Source of the DNA: Candidatus Nomurabacteria bacterium
GTDB lineage: Bacteria; Patescibacteriota; Minisyncoccia; Phycocordibacterales; UBA918
Direction: 5' to 3'
Length of the DNA stretch: 53,681 bases
NCBI GenBank assembly: GCA_020632155.1
Contig: JACKGE010000003.1
Coordinates: forward strand, 1-53,681
Shown: positions 29 through 50,352 of the stretch, piece by piece
Layout: every line of letters starts with the position of its first letter
How positions within the stretch are numbered: position 1 is the first letter of the stretch
Notes under the pieces: model-generated
The model's database searches: none
Told to the model about the DNA's origin: nothing
Seen by the model: the letters and a program-made list of their open reading frames with translations, nothing else
Made by a program: the position numbers and the translations under genes

Positions 29-790
29 ATGTACAGGAAGAACGCTGAAAAGCTTCTTTTGCGAGTAAAAGAGGCTGATCAAATATTAACCGAACTTAAA
101 GTAGTTTTTGAGAATATCAACAAACAACACCGGTCTGGAGGGGGTCATCTTGAATATGCATACCTGGAACATTTTTTAGGTGAAGCCGAAGATGTTTCAT
201 ATCTATTCCAAATTCTTTTTAATGATCAGAGAACTCAAAAATTTTTGCCGATTGCTAACAGAATGTTATTTGAGGTCATTCTAAAAAGTGAGCATTTAAT
301 AAAACTCAAAAACACCGGCAGCGATAATGAAATTCTGAGTCTATTATCTAAAGACATGGCTTCAGCAATGTCCGCACTTGATGATGCGGTTGGATCTGCC
401 GAAGGAAATCCAGCAGCTGATACCTTGGTTAAAATACACTTAGTCAATAAAATTTTAGGAACAGATTTTGATCTAAGTAAAATCAAATCGAATACTCCGA
501 CCTTTCCAAAAATTAAGGACCTTTGTGATAAAAGTAGTATTTGCATTAAAGATTACTGTGCTGATAAGCTCTACCATTTTTATGTTCAGTGGAGCTGGAA
601 TAATCATTCAAGACTAGGAAATGACTTTTCACTTGAAAAAAATTCTGACTATTTGTTAAACAATCAAGCGGAGTGCTTTATTGAAATGTATCTAAAAAAC
701 ATAAAATTACTGTCTAAGCACGCAAATGCTTTAGGTTGTGAGGAAAAAGTAACGGAAATAATGAAACAGATAGGTATTCAGAATATCTAA
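29..790 (+). CDS. AT-rich hypothetical protein, possibly DUF5677/HEPN-like helical family
   Basis: 253-aa ORF, visibly AT-rich. It has NRMLFEVILK and FYVQWSWNNH segments resembling the R..LE and Y..S...H pattern of DUF5677-like proteins (by eye). Confidence 0.55.
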   Translation: MYRKNAEKLLLRVKEADQILTELKVVFENINKQHRSGGGHLEYAYLEHFLGEAEDVSYLFQILFNDQRTQKFLPIANRMLFEVILKSEHLIKLKNTGSDNEILSLLSKDMASAMSALDDAVGSAEGNPAADTLVKIHLVNKILGTDFDLSKIKSNTPTFPKIKDLCDKSSICIKDYCADKLYHFYVQWSWNNHSRLGNDFSLEKNSDYLLNNQAECFIEMYLKNIKLLSKHANALGCEEKVTEIMKQIGIQNI

Positions 791-828
791 ACAACAAAAC
801 CACCCAATTGGGTGGTTTTGTTGTTTAG
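787..828. terminator. Perfect 42-bp palindrome overlapping the stop codon; probable bidirectional terminator
   Basis: ctaaacaacaaaaccacccaa followed by its exact reverse complement ttgggtggttttgttgtttag. Confidence 0.75.
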
Positions 829-962
829 AAGTTGACGAGCCTTCTCGAGTGCTCGAACCAGCTCTCTAATTGGTGACCCATTAACGTGGCTTTCAGAACT
901 GTATAGGGGGCGGAAATATATTAAATCGAGCATACAAATACTCACACCACAAACCTCTCAAT

Positions 963-996
963 AAGAAAGGGCCGCACCACAGAAGTGATACAGCCC
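963..996 (-). terminator. Intrinsic terminator of the 1021-1431 gene
   Basis: Minus strand gggctgtatcac-ttct-gtggtgcggccc (12-bp stem, 3 G-U pairs), then tttctt. Confidence 0.7.
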
Positions 997-1020
997 GTGA
1001 AGTCGAACTTGTCGTTGCTG

Positions 1021-1431
1021 TCAGCGATAGCCGCTCATCACAGCCATCGCCAGCAGTTCGCCGAGACCGCCCATCTCGCCTTCGTCTTTCTTGTTCTTGA
1101 AGCCGACGACCTGCCAGCCCTCGCAGAGCTTGACCCCGTCGTATTCGTTGCCGTCGGACGGAACGTGCTGCCGGAGGGAGTCGAAGAAGATGGCGTGGAT
1201 GGCGGCGTGCCGCTTATTCGCCTCATGGTAACGGCGCGCCGCTTCCACCGACTCGTTGCCGACCTCGTCGACCAGGTTGTAGAGATGGCGCAGATGCTCG
1301 GGAACCTCACCAATGACCGTATCTTCGTCGGGCTTGAACTGCCCGAGGGCTGATGGCCTCGGCTCGGAGGAGCGCTGCATCGCTTCGACGATACGCTGGG
1401 CGATGTCGAGTTCTTTGGTGTTGTCCGTCAT
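1021..1431 (-). CDS. Hypothetical protein, 136 aa, start MTDNTKE
   Basis: GC-rich ORF. SD agaggag precedes the ATG at 1431, with a promoter upstream and a terminator downstream. The longer ORF-track start is not supported. Confidence 0.75.
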   Translation of the reverse strand: MTDNTKELDIAQRIVEAMQRSSEPRPSALGQFKPDEDTVIGEVPEHLRHLYNLVDEVGNESVEAARRYHEANKRHAAIHAIFFDSLRQHVPSDGNEYDGVKLCEGWQVVGFKNKKDEGEMGGLGELLAMAVMSGYR

Positions 1432-1487
1432 TGGATGTCTCCTCTGTGTTGACGGTGGATAGAACGGGTGAACAAAATACGCACAAA

Positions 1488-1515
1488 ATATTAGCACACA
1501 ATAGATATTTGTCAA
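1488..1515 (-). promoter_or_regulatory. Sigma70-type promoter of the 1431 gene
   Basis: Minus strand TTGACA-N16-TAATAT with a TG extended -10 (tgc-taatat). Confidence 0.65.
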
Positions 1516-1646
1516 GCTCTTGTGTAAGCTATTAACCCTTACAATAAGCCATTTCAAAGGCACTCCTTTTGATGAATATGAAACTGTAGTTCTGATCACT
1601 CTATGTGGCATCCTAAAATATAAAGCAGTATAAAGTATTTTACGAT

Positions 1647-1663
1647 GTGACCCTACGGGGAAT
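1647..1663 (-). repeat. 17-bp direct copy of the tRNA-Glu 3' end (att-like)
   Basis: gtgaccctacggggaat is identical to 2010-2026. A further partial copy, caagtctcctacgggga, is at 1786-1802. Confidence 0.85.
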
Positions 1664-1820: not shown

Positions 1821-2010
1821 CTTACAGGAGCAGTACACCTTTTGGGTATTTTAGTTCGTTTCTCTCCTAAAATTCCACAAAAGCTTTTCGATTCCCACGT
1901 AAACAGTCTCCCAGACTGTTTACTTGTAGGGTCACTTGATGCACGCTTACGCGCGCCGTACCAAAAAGCATTGGTTTAAAATAAACCAATGCTTTTTGGT
2001 ACTTGTCAAG
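1821..2010. repeat. tRNA-trailer element: constant scaffold, split inverted copy of the tRNA 3' end, and terminator hairpin
   Basis: ttcgattccc (1887-1896) and gtagggtcacttga (1926-1939) are reverse complements of 2021-2030 and 2006-2019. They are separated by hairpin gtaaacagtct-ccc-agactgtttac. A 21-bp-arm hairpin lies at 1958-2002. Block 1821-1922 is homologous to 50127-50226. Confidence 0.8.
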
Positions 2011-2082
2011 TGACCCTACGGGGAATCGAACCCCGGTTTCGCGCGTGAGAGGCGCGTGTCCTAGCCGCTAGACGATAGGGCC
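2011..2082 (-). tRNA. tRNA-Glu (anticodon CTC)
   Basis: Acceptor GGCCCTA/TAGGGTC, anticodon arm cgcgc-CTCTCAC-gcgcg, T-loop GGTTCGATTCC. CCA is not encoded. Confidence 0.95.
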
Positions 2083-2123
2083 AAATTTGTAATTCCTGCA
2101 AAACGCAGTGCTCCAAATCCTAC

Positions 2124-2144
2124 CAAAAAAATCCAAAACTGCAA
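2124..2144 (-). repeat. 21-bp direct repeat, copy 1 (-35 and spacer of the tRNA-Glu promoter)
   Basis: caaaaaaatccaaaactgcaa is identical to 2515-2535. Minus strand reads TTGCAG-N16-TAGGAT. Confidence 0.85.
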
Positions 2145-2148
2145 CGTA

Positions 2149-2174
2149 AAAACCGGCAGTCCCCTGCCGGTTTT
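2149..2174. terminator. Intrinsic terminator downstream of usg
   Basis: aaaaccggcag-tccc-ctgccggtttt. Confidence 0.8.
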
Positions 2175-2197
2175 GTGTGCGTTGCTTTAAGGCGCAT

Positions 2198-2464
2198 TCA
2201 GTTCAGCCGAAACTCACCTTCAAACGCTCGCCACTCAGACGGCGAAATGAGTTTCTTGTGAACGAATCGCACGCTGTGTAGCGGGCCGTCCAACTCCCGC
2301 TCCCAGAAATCGAGAAAACCGTACAGCACCGGAAACTTCGGCGCAATGTCGTACTCCTGCCAAACGTAGGTCTGGAGCAGTTTCGGATAATCTGGCAGGC
2401 GATAGATGATTTCGGCTGTCGTAAGGCCATAGCCCTTAAGCTGTAGTTCTAACTCAGATGGCAT
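2198..2464 (-). CDS. usg: Usg family protein, 88 aa
   Basis: MPSELELQLKGYGLTTAEIIYRLPDYPKLLQTYVWQEYDIAPKFP...FWERELDGPLHSV is the characteristic Usg sequence. SD gagggag precedes the ATG at 2464. Confidence 0.9.
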   Translation of the reverse strand: MPSELELQLKGYGLTTAEIIYRLPDYPKLLQTYVWQEYDIAPKFPVLYGFLDFWERELDGPLHSVRFVHKKLISPSEWRAFEGEFRLN

Positions 2465-2514
2465 TTTGTGTTCTCCCTCGACTGTTGCAAAGGCCAAGCC
2501 AATATCTAACGTAT

Positions 2515-2535
2515 CAAAAAAATCCAAAACTGCAA
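2515..2535 (-). repeat. 21-bp direct repeat, copy 2 (-35 region of the usg promoter)
   Basis: Exact copy of 2124-2144. Confidence 0.85.
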
Positions 2536-2712
2536 TAAATAAATTAACCCCTTGGCTGCCGAAGCAACCAAGGGGGTGTGGAACAGTGTCCGTATAGGAC
2601 GTGATCAGCGGCAGGACCGCGTCACCTTCTATGCTATCGCACTTCCAGTGACTGTCAAGACGGAGGGTGGGTGGCGGGGCCCCAAGAGGCCCCGCCAACG
2701 GCAATGCGCGGC

Positions 2713-2904
2713 CTAGACCTCACACCACCGCGTCCCACCTTTGAATTCCCCACACTGCGCTCTTTTGGGTGACGGCGAACCGCCTCCTTCGAGAACCTCG
2801 CATTCAAGATCGCCATTTGGTAAGGGGTTGCAGACGAGCTGCCTCCCCTCCTCATGACTACCTGTCATAACGAGTAACGCACATGCGAGTGCTGTCTTGA
2901 TCAT
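2713..2904 (-). CDS. Small putative secreted protein with 4 Cys in the mature part, 63 aa
   Basis: Signal-like N-terminus MIKTALACALLVMTGS, SD aaagga, and a canonical upstream promoter. Confidence 0.6.
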   Translation of the reverse strand: MIKTALACALLVMTGSHEEGRQLVCNPLPNGDLECEVLEGGGSPSPKRAQCGEFKGGTRWCEV

Positions 2905-2959
2905 TTTTGGTCCTTTCTTTGATCACACCGCGCTGGTTCCACGCAGACACGGCTCATAG

Positions 2960-2988
2960 AAAATACCACAAAAATAGAGAATCGTCAA
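2960..2988 (-). promoter_or_regulatory. Sigma70-type promoter of the 2904 gene
   Basis: Minus strand TTGACG-N17-TATTTT with TGG extension. Confidence 0.65.
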
Positions 2989-2995
2989 AAACAAC

Positions 2996-3018
2996 AGCCG
3001 GACGCGGAGCGTCCGGCT
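2996..3018. terminator. Intrinsic terminator after the 3042-3764 gene
   Basis: agccggacgc-gga-gcgtccggct with A-rich and T-rich flanks. Confidence 0.75.
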
Positions 3019-3041
3019 TTTGTTTTTGGTGTGCTTGGAGT

Positions 3042-3764
3042 TTAGTTGTCTGTCTCGAAGTCCTCTACCCCACCACAGGCAATGACTGGGTCGTCGTCAT
3101 CGTCATCGTACTCAACACAGATCTGGAAATAAATGTCAGTGTTGTCATCAAGGCCATAGATCTGCGCGTAGTAATTTGAATCGCCATCAAGGTCACTATC
3201 AACGACGATCTTCTGCAGGTCATCACCGTCTTCGTCAATGTCGCGATACTCATCGTAATCATCTTCGATGTCAGCCACCTGATCCTCGTCTTCACCGTAG
3301 ACAAAGAATACGTAGCCGTTGCGGTAGTCGTTCATGTCGACTTCACCGCGAAGTTCAGCGCTATGGTCGTCGATATCACGAGCAGAGTTGGTTTGCACAT
3401 CCGGCTCATCATCATTTCTATTTCTGTCATTATTTGAGCGCGCACGACCCACCACTATCACTTCGTCGTCATAGTGATTGCTGTATGGGTACTGGTATTG
3501 ATACTGGTACTGAGTACCTGGGTAGGTGTAGTAGTACACTGGTTGCTGCTGACGCTGCTCTTTGAGCTGATCTTGCAGCTGCGCTACCAAGCGGTACAGA
3601 TAGTTAAGGTAATCAACCTGTGACTGCACATTAGCTTGATTTTGATATTGGTAGGTTGGGTACGTGTAGGTAGTTGGGTATACGTACGTGTAGGCCAAAG
3701 ACTCTGCTGGCATAAGCATGACCGCGAGCAATAGTCCAAGGAACAAAGTAGTTACTTTTTTCAT
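3042..3764 (-). CDS. Secreted Tyr/Gln-rich protein with an acidic C-terminal beta-sandwich (FN3-like) domain
   Basis: Signal peptide MKKVTTLFLGLLLAVMLMPAESLA, YTY/YQY low complexity, and C-terminal VQTNSARDI...AELRGEV...YFQICVEY typical of CPR surface proteins. Confidence 0.7.
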   Translation of the reverse strand: MKKVTTLFLGLLLAVMLMPAESLAYTYVYPTTYTYPTYQYQNQANVQSQVDYLNYLYRLVAQLQDQLKEQRQQQPVYYYTYPGTQYQYQYQYPYSNHYDDEVIVVGRARSNNDRNRNDDEPDVQTNSARDIDDHSAELRGEVDMNDYRNGYVFFVYGEDEDQVADIEDDYDEYRDIDEDGDDLQKIVVDSDLDGDSNYYAQIYGLDDNTDIYFQICVEYDDDDDDPVIACGGVEDFETDN

Positions 3765-3859
3765 GGTATTTCTAGTTATATCTAACAAAGTAGCTCCCCA
3801 CAGAGCTGGTACCCCAAAAATACGCTTTATAGAGAGAAAATGCAACCCCGCACGTAAAT

Positions 3860-5152
3860 CTAAGCCTTATTTAGCCACACACTGCTTTGTCGAACAAGGA
3901 GTGCCTCTGCCTGCTCTGGATGGGCCATAATGTCAGCCACAATGCGCTCACAGCGTATACCCTGTGAACCTTTTACCAAGATAACGTCCCCTTTTTTGAT
4001 GTAGTTTTGGAGTTCCCTCCCTGCTGAGACCGCGTCATCGTATTGGAAAATGCGTTTTTCGTTCATACCGGCTTCGAGCGCCCCTTCAGCTATTTTGCGC
4101 GCGCGAACCCCGACCGTAAAGAGGACATCAGCGGTTTCGGCCGCTTGTTCACCCAATTTCTCGTGTTCGCGGACAGAGAATTGTCCAAGTTCGAGCATAT
4201 CACCCAGTACCGCAATGCGGCTACCGCCAGTTTTGAGCTCTAGTAATGTGGAAAGTGCACGTTCAGCGGCAGTCGGTGACGAATTATACGTATCATCAAT
4301 AATGACCGTGTCCTTGAGCCCTGCAACAATGCGCATACGACCAGCTGGCGGCACATACCCTGCCATAGATTTTGCCACCTCAGCCAAATTGATATCAAAT
4401 ATCGATGCCACCGCAAAAGCAGCTCCAACACTATACAAGTGGTGCGTGCCTACTACATTCGGCAAATGAACACTGACCGATTCTTCCAAGTGTTCGATAT
4501 TAAATGAGATGCCGGTCGGCACTTTTCCGTCATATACAATCGTGTCACCCTGTGCGGTAAAGTGAGTTGGGGCGTAGCGAGCAAAGCCAATAGCTTTTTG
4601 CCGAACTGTTTCAACCACTTCTCGCACCTTTTCATCGTCATTGTTGTAGACCAGAACACCTTCGGGCTTGAGGGCCGCAACAAGTTCTAGCTTCTCTGCA
4701 ATGACGTCCTCCGGTGAGGCAAAGTACTCCACGTGGACCGGTACATTGGGAAGACGAGTAAGCACTACTACATCGGGCCTCAGCCAACTGGTGAGCTGTT
4801 TCATGTCCCCCGGACGGTCAACACCCACCTCAAGCACCAGCAGCTCTGGGTAATTCCCCGGCCAGAGGGTAAGCAAAAAGCCGTCAAAAATATTCTTAAG
4901 CCACTTAAACGGATTATTCCACCCGTTTTCAAGGCCAAGGATGGAAAGGGGTACGCCAATTTCTGAGTTAAAGCTTTTTTCACTCTTACGGGCTCGTTTG
5001 TGGTCTTTAAGGGCGGCGAAGACCGCGTCTTTGGTAGAAGTTTTCCCAACGTTTCCGGTAACAGCAACGATGGTCGGTTTGGTTCTGGCAAGCAGTAACT
5101 TAGCTTCAGCCGTGATAATGCGCACGACCAGCTGTTTCATGATGACTTTCAT
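3860..5152 (-). CDS. murF: UDP-N-acetylmuramoyl-tripeptide--D-Ala-D-Ala ligase
   Basis: AVTGNVGKTSTK P-loop, SFNSEIGVP, IDDTYNSSP, VLGDMLELG, VKGSQG. Confidence 0.95.
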   Translation of the reverse strand: MKVIMKQLVVRIITAEAKLLLARTKPTIVAVTGNVGKTSTKDAVFAALKDHKRARKSEKSFNSEIGVPLSILGLENGWNNPFKWLKNIFDGFLLTLWPGNYPELLVLEVGVDRPGDMKQLTSWLRPDVVVLTRLPNVPVHVEYFASPEDVIAEKLELVAALKPEGVLVYNNDDEKVREVVETVRQKAIGFARYAPTHFTAQGDTIVYDGKVPTGISFNIEHLEESVSVHLPNVVGTHHLYSVGAAFAVASIFDINLAEVAKSMAGYVPPAGRMRIVAGLKDTVIIDDTYNSSPTAAERALSTLLELKTGGSRIAVLGDMLELGQFSVREHEKLGEQAAETADVLFTVGVRARKIAEGALEAGMNEKRIFQYDDAVSAGRELQNYIKKGDVILVKGSQGIRCERIVADIMAHPEQAEALLVRQSSVWLNKA

Positions 5153-9124: not shown

Positions 9125-9153
9125 TTGACTTTAAGACTTTTTTATGCTATTAT
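9125..9153 (+). promoter_or_regulatory. Sigma70-type promoter of the 9203 gene
   Basis: TTGACT-N17-TATTAT with a TG extended -10. Confidence 0.7.
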
Positions 9154-47318: not shown

Positions 47319-47357
47319 TAAAGCGATTTTATCATTTTAGAGCTAAATTGGCTCTTT

Positions 47358-47525
47358 AGGAAAAACAGAAAAATAGGTCAGACACCTTTGTTTTGAGGAA
47401 AATGTGTTCTAAATTTAGATCTTAGTGTTCACCCCCTGGGTTTAACCTTGGGATACGAGAATGTTCAAAATCCTATGAAATATAGAAAAGCCGCCACCCC
47501 GTTGTGAGACGAAGCTTTGGCTTTT
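47358..47525. repeat. Composite repeat A
   Basis: ggtcagacacctttgttttgaggaaaatgtgt..., degenerate ccctgggtttaaccttggg palindrome, tail aatgttcaaaat...gaaaagcc...ggctttt shared with B. Confidence 0.85.
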
Positions 47526-47606
47526 CATCTCACCGAAGTGGCGATTAGCGATAGCGACCCGTGTAGTAGCAACCACTGTTGCCGATGCACACGCCGTTCT
47601 TGTAGT

Positions 47607-47780
47607 GAGGAAAATAGGGTCAGACACCTTTGTTTTGTAAGGAAAATAGGGTCAGACACCTTTGTTTTGAGGAAAATGTGTCCTAATTTATATCTTGGTG
47701 TGTTCCGCTAGGTGGAAAATGTTCAAAATTCTATGAAATATAGAAAAGCCACCACCCCGTGAGACGAAGCTTTGGCTTTT
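47607..47780. repeat. Composite repeat B (core doubled)
   Basis: 29-bp ggaaaatagggtcagacacctttgttttg at 47609 and 47641; tail nearly identical to A. Confidence 0.85.
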
Positions 47781-47947
47781 TGAGATTATTGGTATATATA
47801 AAACTAGTTTAAGTGACTAGTGTTTACAAGCATTGAACCATTACGAGATATTTGACATTATAAAAAAATATCGTATCTTTTTTGATGACAGCTTGGATTG
47901 TTCGCACCAAGTGTCTGATGATGATGAGCGAACATAGGAGAAGTACC

Positions 47948-48427
47948 TTGGAAGATGCACGTCAACCCCGTCAGTATAAAATATCGGTCTGCACTCGTAA
48001 CAATTTGCTCGTACTGAAAAGCGAATCGCCACTACTTGCGCAATCCCGGGCTGAAACTTTCGACTTCCCGCTGAGAGAATCCTCCAACCACGCCTTATCC
48101 AACACGACGGATTTCGGCGCCAATTTGGTCAAGCGTATCTGGGAGAAAGTCTCTGGCGCAACGAACGTTCGGCTTCTGTTGTATGAGGCCACTGCCAATC
48201 TCGGGGGTTTCTATGAACCAAGAAAGACCTTGGAGCAGATGGAGGAGATCCTCAAAAGCATATGCAATGATGCTTGGTTGTCGCCGACGATCACAACCGA
48301 AACAATCCCCTTCCTCTCACATGAAACGACAAGAGCCGTTCCTTATACACACCCCTTCGGAAGGCTTCCGCTTCGACTCCACGAGCAGCGACAACGCGGT
48401 CGTAAAAGGCTCGTGCTTGTGAGGTAA
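47948..48427 (+). CDS. Hypothetical protein, about 159 aa (TTG start)
   Basis: SD aggag 7 nt before an in-frame TTG at 47948, TTGACA at 47852, hairpins after the stop. Confidence 0.55.
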   Translation: MEDARQPRQYKISVCTRNNLLVLKSESPLLAQSRAETFDFPLRESSNHALSNTTDFGANLVKRIWEKVSGATNVRLLLYEATANLGGFYEPRKTLEQMEEILKSICNDAWLSPTITTETIPFLSHETTRAVPYTHPFGRLPLRLHEQRQRGRKRLVLVR

Positions 48428-48532
48428 TCGCAACGAGTTCAGAGGGCGGCAAACCGGCCGCCCTCATCCGCCATGCAAAGACTGCGTGGCGGTTTTTGTT
48501 ACTCAAAATAATTGAAAAACAGGTTGAAAACA

Positions 48533-48648
48533 GGGTCAGACACCTTTGTTTTGAGGAAAATGTGTCCTAATTTAGATTTTAGTGTTCACCCCTAGGTTAA
48601 ACCTAGGGATTCGATACCAGATTTTGAGTTTATAAAACAAAACCGCCG
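48533..48648. repeat. Composite repeat C
   Basis: 48533-48618 is identical (86 bp) to 49235-49320 and contains palindrome ccctaggtt-a-aacctaggg. Confidence 0.9.
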
Positions 48649-48649
48649 C

Positions 48650-49087
48650 TCATTTTAGAGCAGCGGCAAGCTTCATCACGTACTTTCTTTTTTTGGGCGG
48701 GAGCCTGTTGATGCTGAGCGGGATATTCAGTAAACCTTGCATATGAACGAGTGAGGCGACCTGTTTGAGTATCCTGTCTTTGCAATAGGAGTCACAGGCT
48801 TCTTGAATCATCCTGATATCATCAAGGCTTGGCACGATGTACTTTTCTGGAAAAATGTACCTGCAGATCAATATCCACCGAGCGAGCTCGTATCCCGGTT
48901 CGAGCCCTAGTGTGCCTTTTCCTTCCCTGGCACACTGTAACCGATACAGAATCAGGTTTTTTTCGTCCGCCGTTAAGCAGTTGGGAACACCAATACCACG
49001 TAACAATAGGGCTGCTCGCGCCACCAAATAGATGTTGTTGTTTTTTCGACCCTCTTCTAGGAGGGCAAAGAGTTGTGACTCTTTCAT
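48650..49087 (-). CDS. Hypothetical protein, 145 aa
   Basis: SD AGGAGGT before ATG 49087; promoter CTGACA-N16-TATTGT (49115-49142). Confidence 0.7.
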   Translation of the reverse strand: MKESQLFALLEEGRKNNNIYLVARAALLLRGIGVPNCLTADEKNLILYRLQCAREGKGTLGLEPGYELARWILICRYIFPEKYIVPSLDDIRMIQEACDSYCKDRILKQVASLVHMQGLLNIPLSINRLPPKKRKYVMKLAAALK

Positions 49088-49199
49088 CTTCACCTCCTAG
49101 GTTAAACCGAGGACACAATACCATAAAAGTATATTCTGTCAGCTTTGCAGAAATATAATCAACAAGAATTACAATTCCCTATTTGAGCTGTTTATCCTT

Positions 49200-49360
49200 A
49201 AGGAAAATTGGGTCAGACACCTTTAAGGAAAATTGGGTCAGACACCTTTGTTTTGAGGAAAATGTGTCCTAATTTAGATTTTAGTGTTCACCCCTAGGTT
49301 AAACCTAGGGATTCGATACCGGAGTTTGATTTTGAGTTTATAAAATGAAAGACCGCCCGA
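49200..49360. repeat. Composite repeat D (core doubled)
   Basis: Exact 25-bp tandem aaggaaaattgggtcagacaccttt x2 (49200-49249), then 86-bp identity with C and shared attttgagtttataaaa...accgcc. Confidence 0.9.
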
Positions 49361-49381
49361 AGGCGATCCCTCATGGCGGTA

Positions 49382-49837
49382 TTATTTCGAGCGACTGAAG
49401 TACATTGCTCCATGATCCTCGAGGAACGTGTCTTCGAGTTGGTCACTGACATTTTCTGGCACCATCATGACATAGGCCATGACAGCCGCCACTCTGAGGT
49501 CGTCAATCTGGAGTTTCGTGCGACGTTCGCGCTTTTGTGTGTGTTTGACCCGCCGCCTCACAAGCTCGATTAATCCTGCAACTGCGACGTCCATGCATTG
49601 GACTAGAACTTGATCAGCATAGTCAGTCTCGTCGGGATTCCAGTCGTAGGCTTCAATCAAGTCGTCGAACATAGGCTCACAGCACACCTTAATTATGTTG
49701 CGAGCTTTTTCTTCAACGACGACGTCTCCGGCTTTATCGCGAACACTCATCCACAGATCAAGGGCAAGTCGCAGGTGAATGGTGCCGTAGTCGTCGTCAT
49801 CGGTGATACGGATACCAAGGAACTTTTTATCGACCAT
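49382..49837 (-). CDS. Hypothetical helical protein, 151 aa
   Basis: SD AAGGAGG before the ATG; hairpin and T-rich tract after the stop. Confidence 0.75.
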   Translation of the reverse strand: MVDKKFLGIRITDDDDYGTIHLRLALDLWMSVRDKAGDVVVEEKARNIIKVCCEPMFDDLIEAYDWNPDETDYADQVLVQCMDVAVAGLIELVRRRVKHTQKRERRTKLQIDDLRVAAVMAYVMMVPENVSDQLEDTFLEDHGAMYFSRSK

Positions 49838-49949: not shown

Positions 49950-50280
49950 GCTCCGGCGGCAGGAATTTCTTTCATTACATGAGCAGTATAGGTTTTCAAT
50001 ATTTCAAATCCAAGTATTCCTGAAATATTTGATTAACCTCCTAAAACAGTCCGTATGGACTGTTTTAGCCTGCGACCAATTGATTACGAGAATCATTTAT
50101 GCGCTCCGGCGGCAGAAATTTCGAAACTTACAGTTTCAGTACACCTTGTCAGTATTTTGTTTCCTTACGTTACAAAATACTAGGCAAGGTCTTCGAATCC
50201 TAACGAAACAGTCTCCCAGATTGTTTCTCCGGGGAGCTTATAACGCAAAAATGCCCTCATCGGGCATTTTTACTAACAAG
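49950..50280. repeat. tRNA-Asn trailer element with a split inverted 3'-end copy and two degenerate direct 3'-end copies
   Basis: ttcgaatccta (50192-50202) and ccggggagctt (50229-50239) flank hairpin aaacagtct-ccc-agattgttt. Direct copies gctccggcggca are at 50103 and 49950. Terminator at 50247-50271. Confidence 0.8.
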
Positions 50281-50352
50281 CTCCGCCGGTAGGATTCGAA
50301 CCTACGACCAATCGGTTAACAGCCGACTGCTCTACCGCTGAGCTACGGCGGA
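50281..50352 (-). tRNA. tRNA-Asn (anticodon GTT)
   Basis: TCCGCCG/CGGCGGA acceptor, gtcgg-CTGTTAA-ccgat, GGTTCGAATCC. CCA is not encoded. Confidence 0.96.

What the first reader, a model, noticed from the sequence alone, without database searches (positions are those of the whole stretch)
2124..2535. usg cassette flanked by an exact 21-bp duplication of the tRNA-Glu promoter
Seen: caaaaaaatccaaaactgcaa occurs exactly at 2124-2144 and 2515-2535. On the minus strand it is TTGCAG plus spacer, the -35 half of the tRNA-Glu promoter (followed by TAGGAT). The 391-bp interval holds exactly a terminator, usg, its SD and a replacement -10 region. Inference: a foreign gene was inserted into a strong tRNA promoter with duplication of the -35/spacer, so both passenger and tRNA keep a promoter. 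This is a footprint of how such genomes capture ready-to-express orphans.
Basis: partly seen in the sequence, partly recalled or inferred. Interest (0 to 1): 0.7.

Follow-up and report, generated by a model that had tools for sequence, protein, structure and literature searches.

The report
Borrowed gene bracketed by duplicated promoter
A tiny wastewater bacterium (Patescibacteria) carries one gene, usg, imported from Alphaproteobacteria just upstream of a tRNA gene, and the insert is bracketed by two near-identical copies of the tRNA's promoter core, so gene and tRNA each appear to have a promoter; it is a tidy but single and untimed footprint of foreign-gene capture.

Summary
The 21-mer is exact at 2124-2144 and 2515-2535, with 0 expected by chance. 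It extends to 24 nt (23/24). It has no exact match in 241 M metagenome records or in IMG/VR.

Contigs from independent activated-sludge studies cross both copies, so it is not an assembly chimera.

On the minus strand each copy reads TTGCAG, a 15-nt T-rich spacer, then TG and TA. This is an extended -10 sigma70-type promoter in this genome's own style. It is a weak consensus match, not demonstrably "strong".

The bracketed gene is a bona fide Usg (PF06233, E 5e-42). Its best matches are Hyphomicrobiales-type alphaproteobacterial genes (up to 83% aa, about 77% nt). The host is a Paceibacteria (CPR) chromosome. The donor-like part is the CDS plus the Shine-Dalgarno block.

The gene is intact: all 34 invariant residues are kept and dN/dS is about 0.1.

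The key prediction, a usg-less relative with a single promoter copy, could not be tested. The nearest relative is only 73% identical in MurF and its contig ends just before the junction. Twelve runs show no empty site.

A relative (L028) has a tandem promoter-psi-tRNA-Glu / promoter-tRNA-Glu duplication, which offers a credible rival route.

Interest is moderate.

The parts
2512..2535 (-). Repeat copy B (21 exact nt at 2515-2535, plus 3). Minus strand reads TTGCAG (-35, 2535-2530), a 15-nt T-rich spacer ending in TG (extended -10), then A and TA.
2508..2513 (-). -10-like hexamer of copy B, TACGTT. It is preceded by TGA. Only its first two bases lie inside the repeat.
   Evidence: sequence reading. 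The TSS is not mapped.
2473..2479 (-). Shine-Dalgarno GAGGGAG of usg. The block TCGAGGGAGAACAC (about 2486-2468) resembles the same block at the same offset in the alphaproteobacterial locus L011 (TCGAGGGAACAC).
   Evidence: 32/1000 shuffles reach the score, before counting the positional coincidence
2198..2464 (-). usg CDS, 88 aa, of alphaproteobacterial (Hyphomicrobiales-type) origin. GC 52% and GC3 62%, against host genes at about 50% GC3.
2147..2175 (-). Intrinsic terminator T2 after usg (AAAACCGGCAG-GGGA-CTGCCGGTTTTT). An outer 6-bp stem, GCAACG/CGTTGC, overlaps the first bases of the copy A -35.
   Evidence: -26.5 kcal/mol, z -6.4. It has no match in the sampled donor loci.
2121..2144 (-). 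Repeat copy A (21 exact nt at 2124-2144, plus 3). Same -35, spacer and TG as copy B, then G and TA.
2117..2122 (-). -10 hexamer of copy A, TAGGAT, preceded by TGG. It lies 34 nt upstream of the tRNA 5' end.
   Evidence: The core TTTTTTGGTA is shared with the promoter of the L028 relative (9/500 shuffles).
2010..2082 (-). tRNA-Glu(CTC)
1958..2002 (-). Terminator T3 after tRNA-Glu (21-bp perfect stem)
   Evidence: (I2)
2548..2575 (-). Terminator T1, immediately upstream of copy B. It ends the native orf63 unit and insulates usg from upstream transcription.
   Evidence: -24.2 kcal/mol, z -5.5
2713..2904 (-). orf63, a small Cys-containing secreted-type protein. It is native: a homologue follows the orf267 homologue in the closest relative, L019.
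3042..3845 (-). orf267, a D/Y-rich low-complexity protein. It is native and conserved directly downstream of murF in relatives L019, L023 and L024.
3860..5152 (-). murF, the end of the dcw cluster. It served as the anchor for finding relatives.

Best explanation
A fragment of roughly 300-370 bp of alphaproteobacterial DNA carrying usg and its own ribosome-binding site was integrated by illegitimate, recombinase-independent recombination. The integration site was the promoter of the single tRNA-Glu(CTC) gene of a Paceibacteria (CPR) chromosome.

The break in the promoter was staggered, or was repaired by template switching. As a result the -35 hexamer, the T-rich spacer and the TG element (21-24 bp) ended up on both sides of the insert.

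The upstream copy, completed by a new TAnnnT hexamer (TACGTT), now drives usg as an insulated monocistronic unit: T1, then P_B, SD, usg and T2. The downstream copy keeps the original -10 (TAGGAT) and still drives the tRNA.

Shown:
- the repeat itself, its uniqueness, and its reality in independent samples;
- the foreign origin and intactness of usg;
- the terminators;
- the promoter-like architecture.

Inferred:
- that both copies fire;
- that insertion and duplication were one event;
- the repair mechanism.
For: - The repeat is exact over 21 nt with sharp edges and is unique.
- It is real in at least 7 independent runs.
- usg is PF06233, and its best hits are Hyphomicrobiales-type genes in alphaproteobacterial contexts.
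- Donor-like DNA is limited to the CDS plus the SD block.
- No relative of the host has usg.
- More distant relatives have tRNA-Glu(CTC) directly after murF (L003, L007). The closest relative has murF, orf267 and orf63, then a terminator. The usg unit is therefore the lineage-specific addition.
- The differences between the copies are confined to the -10 (P = 0.011 if random). This fits a duplication ending at the TG/TA boundary.
- The element matches the genome's own TTGnnn/T-tract/TGnTAnnnT promoter style. Six of the 10 matches lie in the roughly 15% of the window that is non-coding.
- Strong terminators sit before each copy.
- Usg keeps all 34 invariant residues and dN/dS is 0.07-0.13, so it has been kept functional and is presumably expressed.
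- Argument from function: a one-step event that regenerates the promoter is the simplest way to insert into the promoter of a single-copy tRNA without losing it. This is inference.
Against: - No empty site or usg-less close relative was found, so the ancestral single copy is not demonstrated.
- A 21-24-bp target duplication is longer than any ordinary transposition footprint, and no enzyme is implicated. The window has no transposase or integrase.
- T2 and the ~25 nt below copy B match nothing, so the extent of the imported fragment is uncertain.
- Synonymous divergence from every sampled donor is saturated (dS > 1). An insertion that old would not be expected to leave 21 spacer positions untouched. 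This holds unless the true donor is unsampled, or the copies are homogenised or under constraint.
- Both hexamer pairs are weak consensus matches (7/12 and 6/12).
- No transcript data exist.
Confidence: 0.45

Rival explanations
1. Tandem duplication came first. The promoter-tRNA-Glu unit was tandemly duplicated, which is a common and reversible event. The redundant upstream tRNA copy was then replaced by the incoming usg fragment, leaving only its promoter core. On this view the repeat pre-dates usg and is not an insertion footprint.
For: L028 is a relative that shares the tRNA-Glu(CTC) and 889 nt of downstream DNA at 76% identity. It carries exactly such a tandem: a promoter (TTTTTTGGTATCAT), a decayed psi-tRNA-Glu with insertions, about 170 nt, then a second GTATCAT and the intact tRNA-Glu. 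The area around this tRNA is full of partial tRNA duplications (D4/D16, D5/D18, I6, I10). A redundant copy is a safe landing site.
Against: No tRNA relic follows copy B; the alignment score is below the shuffle mean, with 498/500 shuffles scoring at least as well. This route needs at least two events and a replacement breakpoint that happens to fall inside the promoter. The L028 duplicates are strongly diverged, whereas the window's copies are identical over 21 nt, so it is not the same inherited duplication.
Confidence: 0.22
2. Later promoter recruitment. usg first landed promoterless between T1 and the tRNA promoter. It acquired a copy of the neighbouring promoter core afterwards, by a short ectopic duplication or gene conversion selected because it switched the gene on.
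For: The repeat is perfectly identical over 21 nt although usg is saturated at synonymous sites relative to all sampled donors. That is easier to explain if the duplication is younger than the gene. T1 is a strong terminator, so a gene inserted after it would need its own promoter.
Against: A non-tandem copy placed 391 bp away with no flanking homology has no simple mechanism. The copy ends precisely before the -10 rather than including it. The age argument fails if the real donor is simply unsampled.
Confidence: 0.12
3. The repeat is the core (att-like) site of a site-specific or Campbell-type single-crossover integration. A small circular usg molecule already carrying the 21-24-bp sequence recombined with the chromosome, so the 391-bp unit would be an excisable cassette.
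For: A single crossover of a circular molecule does produce direct duplication of the shared segment around the insert. This was documented experimentally in E. coli for segments of 109-950 bp (PMC3240628). The unit is compact and self-contained. A cassette-like array of orphan ORFs separated by a repeated module exists elsewhere in the window.
Against: No recombinase is present in the 53.7 kb. No excised or empty form appears in 12 runs. The 21-mer occurs nowhere else. There are no attC-like or terminal inverted-repeat features. 21-24 bp is far below the documented lengths. It is also unclear how a foreign circle would come to carry the host promoter.
Confidence: 0.08
4. The duplicated 21-mer is not primarily a promoter. 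It would be a binding site for some other factor (a regulator or nucleoid protein) or a sequence without function, and the promoter resemblance would be coincidental.
For: The consensus match is weak (3/6 for the -35; 4/6 and 3/6 for the -10), and the scanner did not call either copy. There is no expression data.
Against: Both copies sit directly after a terminator and at a sensible distance from a gene start (34 nt to the tRNA; about 44 nt from the -10 to the usg ATG). Both carry TG one base before a TAnnnT hexamer. The same architecture recurs upstream of other genes here. The T-tract plus TGGTA core is shared with the tRNA-Glu promoter of L028.
Confidence: 0.1

Closest known systems
Target-site duplications left by transposable elements
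   Same: Short direct repeats of host sequence bracket a foreign insert, and the repeat derives from the target.
   Different: Ordinary TSDs are about 2-14 bp (general knowledge), whereas this one is 21-24 bp. The insert has no terminal inverted repeats, and the window has no transposase. The insert is a single cellular gene.
att-site direct repeats of tRNA-linked genomic islands
   Same: Foreign DNA lies next to a tRNA gene and is flanked by a direct repeat of 15-25 bp.
   Different: Such islands duplicate the 3' part of the tRNA and lie downstream of it, and an integrase is normally present (general knowledge). Here the repeat is the promoter on the 5' side, with no integrase. A typical 3'-end repeat (17 nt, 1647-1663 and 2010-2026) does exist, but on the other side of this same tRNA.
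Single-crossover (Campbell-type) integration and homology-facilitated illegitimate recombination of short foreign DNA
   Same: Foreign DNA is integrated without a dedicated recombinase, and a single crossover duplicates the shared segment on both sides of the insert (PMC3240628).
   Different: The documented duplications are 109-950 bp and require the incoming molecule to share that segment. Here it is only 21-24 bp, and there is no evidence that the incoming DNA carried it.
Promoter capture or recruitment by horizontally acquired genes
   Same: An imported coding sequence becomes expressed from a host-type promoter rather than its native one. The donor flanks are not retained beyond the SD.
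   Different: The usual cases involve insertion downstream of an existing promoter, IS-borne promoters, or de novo point mutations (general knowledge). Here the resident promoter core itself is present twice, so the resident gene is not deprived.
Usg family (Pfam PF06233)
   Same: Full-length match, with all family-invariant residues kept.
   Different: The named family members among the best hits are Alphaproteobacteria, whereas this copy sits in a Patescibacteria genome. The family's function is unknown. No solved structure or significant fold match was found, and no literature on it was found in the searchable library.

Membership tests
Usg family (PF06233) | Full-length HMM match above the gathering score | tested here: met
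   E 5.2e-42, 142 bits against a cut-off of 27; profile positions 1-80 of 80
Usg family (PF06233) | Conserved residues of the family retained | tested here: met
   All 34 invariant columns of a 30-sequence alignment are kept. Only L20I, H26Y and Y67F differ at near-invariant positions.
Sigma70-type extended -10 promoter | -35-like TTGnnn, 16-18-nt spacing, TGn, and a TAnnnT hexamer at a sensible distance upstream of a gene | tested here: met
   Copy A reads TTGCAG-N16-TAGGAT with TGG. Copy B reads TTGCAG-N16-TACGTT with TGA. The consensus match is weak (7/12 and 6/12), and neither is listed by the standard scan.
Sigma70-type extended -10 promoter | Transcription start mapped downstream of the -10 | not testable with these tools
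   No RNA run holds this stretch.
Transposon or IS insertion with target-site duplication | Terminal inverted repeats at the ends of the insert and a transposase (in cis or in the genome) | tested here: not met
   No inverted repeat at the insert ends. No transposase domain among the window's ORFs. Only 53.7 kb of the genome could be examined.
Transposon or IS insertion with target-site duplication | Duplication length typical of the family (2-14 bp) | tested here: not met
   21 exact, or 24 with one mismatch
Integrase-mediated tRNA-targeted island | The direct repeat derives from the tRNA gene body (3' part), and an integrase gene lies in the island | tested here: not met
   The repeat lies 39-62 nt upstream of the tRNA 5' end. 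The insert encodes only usg, and the window has no integrase.
Integron gene cassette | An attC site (imperfect palindrome with R''/L''/L'/R' boxes and a GTTRRRY core) at the cassette boundary, and a promoterless cassette | tested here: not met
   The boundaries read ACG|TTGCAG and TTA|TTGCAG. The only palindrome is the terminator T2. The cassette has its own promoter-like copy.
Campbell-type single-crossover duplication | The incoming circular DNA carries the duplicated segment | not testable with these tools
   The donor molecule is unknown. The sampled donor loci do not contain the 21-mer.
Horizontally transferred gene (Alphaproteobacteria to Patescibacteria) | Closest homologues in a distant phylum, absent from relatives of the host, with composition deviating from host genes | tested here: met
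   Top hits are 66-83% identical Hyphomicrobiales-type proteins in alphaproteobacterial contexts. usg is absent from all 25 related Patescibacteria loci examined. GC3 is 62%, against about 50% for murF and the PBP gene.

The most novel reading that the evidence does not exclude
Patescibacteria, which probably take up foreign DNA routinely, may have a recurrent, enzyme-mediated or repair-based way of inserting short foreign fragments into active promoters next to tRNA genes, with a ~20-bp duplication of the promoter core. Captured genes would then be expressed at once without silencing the resident gene. The usg unit would be one instance. The array at 47.3-49.4 kb may be another product of the same capture process: three unrelated orphan ORFs separated by four copies of a 110-160-nt module, just downstream of tRNA-Asn. 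The alphaproteobacterial origin of usg might also point to the host or neighbour organism of this epibiont in activated sludge.
Probability: 0.1. Interest if true: 0.75.

Novelty: new variant of a known kind. Interest (0 to 1): 0.4.

Why it matters
How horizontally acquired genes obtain a working promoter in a new host is a standing question. It is acute for reduced genomes such as Patescibacteria, where an insertion into an essential single-copy tRNA promoter should be costly.

This locus shows a clean solution. The SD and CDS are imported, and terminators sit on both sides. The resident promoter core is present twice, so neither gene loses expression.

If the duplication was made by the insertion itself, it defines a footprint that can be searched for genome-wide: long direct repeats of promoter cores around foreign genes. 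That search would measure how often this route is used. It is also a well-supported, assembly-independent case of Alphaproteobacteria-to-Patescibacteria gene transfer within one habitat.

As it stands it is a single case. The timing is unresolved and there are no expression data.

Tried and rejected
1. Phage origin of the window: no match in the phage collection, and the gene content is chromosomal.

2. Assembly chimera, given that the repeat length (21) equals a common assembler k-mer: rejected, because independent runs and assemblers give the same join.

3. Common promoter motif: rejected.

4. Empty-site search:
- no joint skipping the 391-bp unit in 12 runs at 90% likeness;
- no diverged sister strain at 80% likeness, where only foreign usg CDS fragments map.

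5. Close relatives through MurF:
- the best are 73% (L019, whose contig ends in the terminator after orf63) and 65-68% (L021, L023-L026; downstream DNA variable, no adjacent tRNA-Glu);

6. Relatives through ORF136: 8 loci. One (L028) has tRNA-Glu(CTC) and is informative. One (L029) has tRNA-Glu(UUC). The others have no tRNA.

7. Exact look-up of the 88-aa Usg: not on record, because gene callers record a 168-aa over-extended ORF.

8. tRNA relic inside the cassette: none.

9. Donor-derived terminator: no similarity.

10. Usg function: no PDB sequence hit. The AlphaFold model has pLDDT 69, and there is no Foldseek match with E below 0.6. The literature searches were empty, and the one paper citing PF06233 mislabels it as TrpB.

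11. RNA evidence: no run available.

12. Integron, IS and integrase models: features not met (see the membership test).

Full report
**1. The observation**

The 21-mer CAAAAAAATCCAAAACTGCAA is present exactly at 2124-2144 and 2515-2535. No third copy appears in the 53.7-kb window even with three mismatches allowed, and none of 100 dinucleotide-preserving shuffles gave a match. Repeat finding extends it to 24 nt with one mismatch, at 2121-2144 and 2512-2535.

An in-register comparison of the two regions shows sharp edges. On the minus strand nothing matches 5' of TTGCAG. After 21 identical bases the pattern is G/A, TA, g/c, G, a/t, T.

- terminator T2 at 2147-2175 (-26.5 kcal/mol, z = -6.4);
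- usg at 2198-2464;
- its SD GAGGGAG at 2473-2479;
- a -10-like TACGTT at 2508-2513.

tRNA-Glu(CTC) is at 2010-2082 on the minus strand.

**2. Is the arrangement real?**

A repeat of 21 bp, a common assembler k-mer length, around a gene of foreign type raised the possibility of a chimeric assembly. That is excluded. Logan contigs from independent activated-sludge and wastewater studies (2015-2025) cover the tRNA, copy A, usg, copy B and upstream DNA with no mismatch. X1 and X2 have a 6409-nt contig, X3 has 1705 nt over 1833-3537, X4 covers 2132-2711, and shorter contigs in X5, X7, X9, X11, X16 and X20 cross one or the other copy. Four public contigs from different assemblers are 99.95-100% identical to the window.

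**3. What the window is**

The window is not a phage. It is a Patescibacteria (CPR; Paceibacteria/Minisyncoccia-like) chromosome segment. It carries mraZ, mraW, ftsL-like, PBP and murF genes, lysS and greA, PBP2, mreC and mreB, RRF, def and fmt, fpg, a VirD4/TraG-like ATPase, and others. No integrase or transposase domain was found in it.

**4. The passenger**

The 88-aa product is a full-length Usg (PF06233, E 5.2e-42). Of about 4,100 homologues, the best are 80-83% identical. Every named one among the top 120 is alphaproteobacterial, and those named to genus or family are Hyphomicrobiales: Nitratireductor, Aquamicrobium, Mesorhizobium, Rhizobium.

The contigs of the best hits are 59-65% GC and have alphaproteobacterial neighbours, including an ECF sigma factor, DUF1192, DUF465, groES/EL and a convergent quinone oxidoreductase.

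DNA similarity to these loci (74-78%) covers only the coding sequence, window 2197-2455. The one extension is the SD block, TCGAGGGAGAACAC against TCGAGGGAACAC, at the same offset from the start codon. T2 and the ~25 nt between the SD block and copy B match nothing in those loci.

usg has GC3 of 62%, against about 50% for the neighbouring murF and PBP genes.

The protein keeps all 34 invariant residues of a 30-sequence alignment. dN/dS against three alphaproteobacterial genes is 0.07-0.13 with saturated synonymous sites. The gene is therefore intact and constrained. It is not a very recent import from any sampled donor.

None of the 25 related Patescibacteria loci examined has usg. Other, clearly alphaproteobacterial usg genes (80-88% identical, GC-rich flanks) are present at higher depth in the same sludge samples.

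The function of Usg is unknown. No PDB relative was found, the AlphaFold model is only moderately confident (pLDDT 69), there is no significant Foldseek match, and the library holds no usable literature.

**5. The repeated element as a promoter**

On the minus strand each copy reads TTGCAG, a T-rich spacer and TG, followed by one base and a TAnnnT hexamer. Copy A is TGG-TAGGAT and copy B is TGA-TACGTT, both with a 16-nt hexamer spacing.

By the classical consensus these are weak (7/12 and 6/12), and the standard scan lists neither. "Strong promoter" is therefore not supported.

The architecture TTGnnn, T-tract, TGnTAnnnT does recur at other intergenic sites of this genome. It appears upstream of orf63 (2988-2960), of ORF136 (1515-1488), and at 9125 and 17351. 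Six of the ten matches lie in the roughly 15% of the window that is non-coding.

The core TTTTTTGGTA is shared with the tRNA-Glu promoter of relative L028; 9 of 500 shuffles reach that score. tRNA-Asn has a canonical TTGAAA-N16/17-TAAAAT promoter.

Each copy sits directly after a strong terminator, T1 at 2548-2575 or T2, and at a plausible distance from its gene. The layout is T1, P_B, SD-usg, T2, P_A, tRNA-Glu, T3. No RNA run contains the locus, so promoter activity is inferred and not shown.

**6. Is the 21-mer a common motif?**

It is not. It has zero exact matches in 241 million metagenome records and in IMG/VR. Among all fetched loci it occurs only in this organism's own contig.

**7. The other condition: relatives**

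This condition could not be tested.
- The species is clonal in public data.
- No contig skips the 391-bp unit in 12 runs.
- At 80% likeness no sister strain appears.
- The nearest MurF relatives are 73% (L019), 68% (L021) and 65-67% identical (L023-L026).

L019 shows murF, an orf267 homologue, an orf63 homologue and a terminator, and then its contig ends. orf267 and orf63 are therefore native, and usg is the lineage-specific addition, but the junction itself is missing.

In the 65-68% relatives the DNA after the orf267 homologue is variable, with no adjacent tRNA-Glu. In more distant relatives (L003, L007) tRNA-Glu(CTC) directly follows murF.

**8. A relative that suggests a rival**

I searched with the rare GC-rich ORF136 (1024-1431) that flanks the tRNA on its 3' side. 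This led to L028, which shares tRNA-Glu(CTC) and 889 nt of downstream DNA at 76% identity.

Upstream of its intact tRNA-Glu, L028 has a second promoter (TTTTTTGGTATCAT) followed by a decayed tRNA-Glu copy interrupted by insertions. Tandem duplication of the promoter-tRNA unit therefore does occur in this lineage.

The window's two promoter cores could be what remains of such a tandem after usg replaced the upstream tRNA copy. Three points count against this:
- no tRNA relic follows copy B;
- the L028 copies are strongly diverged, whereas the window's are identical;
- more events are needed.

**9. Weighing mechanisms**

The three differences between the two 28-nt promoters all fall in the last seven positions (P = 0.011 if random). 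The duplicated unit therefore most likely ends at the TG/TA boundary, and the copy B -10 is not a diverged copy of A's.

I favour a one-step illegitimate integration with a staggered break or template switch that duplicated 21-24 bp (confidence about 0.45). It regenerates the promoter of a single-copy tRNA in the same event and needs the fewest steps.

Against this, a duplication of that length has no known ordinary enzyme, and no recombinase is nearby. The perfect identity of 21 largely unconstrained spacer positions also sits awkwardly with the saturated divergence of usg, unless the true donor is unsampled.

The rivals are:
- tandem duplication first (0.22);
- later recruitment of a promoter copy (0.12);
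- the element is not a promoter (0.10);
- an att-like or Campbell-type cassette (0.08). Single crossovers do duplicate the shared segment, but the documented lengths are 109-950 bp (PMC3240628).

Chance, artefact and common-motif explanations are excluded.

**10. Comparison with known systems**

The footprint resembles a target-site duplication but fails the defining features of IS/transposon, integrase-island and integron cassette insertions (see the membership test). It works like promoter capture by a horizontally acquired gene, with the unusual twist that the promoter core is present twice.

I class it as a new variant of a known kind. The interest is moderate (0.4). The HGT and the tidy modular architecture are well supported. 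Against that, it is a single case, the timing is unresolved, there is no expression evidence, and the passenger's function is unknown.

**11. Other things seen**

These are listed under Noticed in passing. The main one is a cassette-like array of three unrelated orphan ORFs, separated by four copies of one 110-160-nt module, just downstream of tRNA-Asn. It is the only other local duplication of intergenic DNA around orphan genes in the window. It is the best lead for asking whether such capture is recurrent.

Noticed in passing
window 47340-49370 (copies at 47364-47525, 47606-47780, 48522-48642, 49199-49350): Four copies of a 110-160-nt intergenic module separate three mutually unrelated orphan ORFs with no Pfam hit (47882-48427 +, 48650-49093 -, 49382-49837 -). 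The module's core is GAAAAYWGGGTCAGACACCTTTGTTTTGAGGAAAATGTGTCCTAATTTAGATYTTAGTGTTCACCCCTAGGTTAAACCTAGG, with an internal doubled 23-nt sub-repeat. A 17-nt palindrome, CCTAGGTTAAACCTAGG, is also found at 49096-49112. The array sits in a low-GC island just downstream of tRNA-Asn (50280-50352) and looks like a cassette array. There is no Rfam match.
   Followed up: partly
window 1647-1663, 1763-1780, 1887-1902, 1926-1939: Fragments of tRNA lie downstream of tRNA-Glu. One is an exact 17-nt direct copy of its 3' end (GTGACCCTACGGGGAAT, also at 2010-2026). One is a 14-nt inverted copy. Two are T-arm-like pieces (TTCGATTCCCACG) on the + strand. The same layout is conserved in relative L028, so these may be old integration scars or a conserved structured element.
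   Followed up: partly
window 1024-1431 (-), promoter-like site 1488-1515; loci L027-L035: The GC-rich ORF136 (56-65% GC in a 48% GC genome) belongs to a family of only about 20 proteins with no Pfam domain. With its 5' leader it recurs at 69-76% nt identity in contigs of 40-53% GC and differing gene contexts. In 2 of 8 loci it lies next to a tRNA-Glu. It may be a small mobile module. L027 is a 99.6%-identical strain variant of window 434-1593.
   Followed up: partly
L028 5176-5579: This relative carries a tandem: a promoter, a decayed psi-tRNA-Glu (its 5' part and anticodon arm are kept; a terminator-like hairpin and a 66-nt hairpin are inserted), about 170 nt, then the intact tRNA-Glu(CTC). 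It lies divergent from tRNA-Ser(CGA).
   Followed up: yes
window 2631-2658 (-) to 2548-2575: The best consensus promoter of the region (TTGACA-N16-TAGCAT, 10/12) lies between orf63 and terminator T1, in a 62-65% GC stretch. It would give a transcript of only about 60-85 nt ending at T1. This may be a small RNA, or a chance match.
   Followed up: no
window 2198-2704 (-); L015 5716-6222: Public gene calls record Usg as a 168-aa protein starting at a TTG at 2704. That ORF runs through terminator T1 and promoter copy B. The 88-aa form with its SD matches the family length (88-90 aa), so the long call is probably an over-extension. It also explains why the exact-protein look-up failed.
   Followed up: yes
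window 2271-2441 in runs X1, X2, X16, X18: Several other usg genes (80-88% identical, with GC-rich unlike flanks and up to about 36x depth) co-occur with this organism in the same activated-sludge samples. Alphaproteobacterial carriers of usg therefore share its habitat.
   Followed up: partly
window 2142-2147 and 2180-2185: A 6-bp outer stem (GCAACG/CGTTGC) around terminator T2 pairs with the first bases of the copy A -35. The usg terminator and the tRNA promoter therefore overlap physically. This may be chance.
   Followed up: no
window 29-790 (+): A 253-aa ORF of only 34% GC with no Pfam hit lies next to the 56-65% GC ORF136. The DNA 3' of tRNA-Glu is a mosaic of compositionally foreign pieces.
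   Followed up: no
window 3042-3845 (-); L019, L023, L024: A D/Y-rich low-complexity protein with an N-terminal hydrophobic segment and a conserved C-terminal motif (…CGGVEDFxTD) is conserved directly after murF in this family of Patescibacteria. It has no Pfam domain.
   Followed up: no
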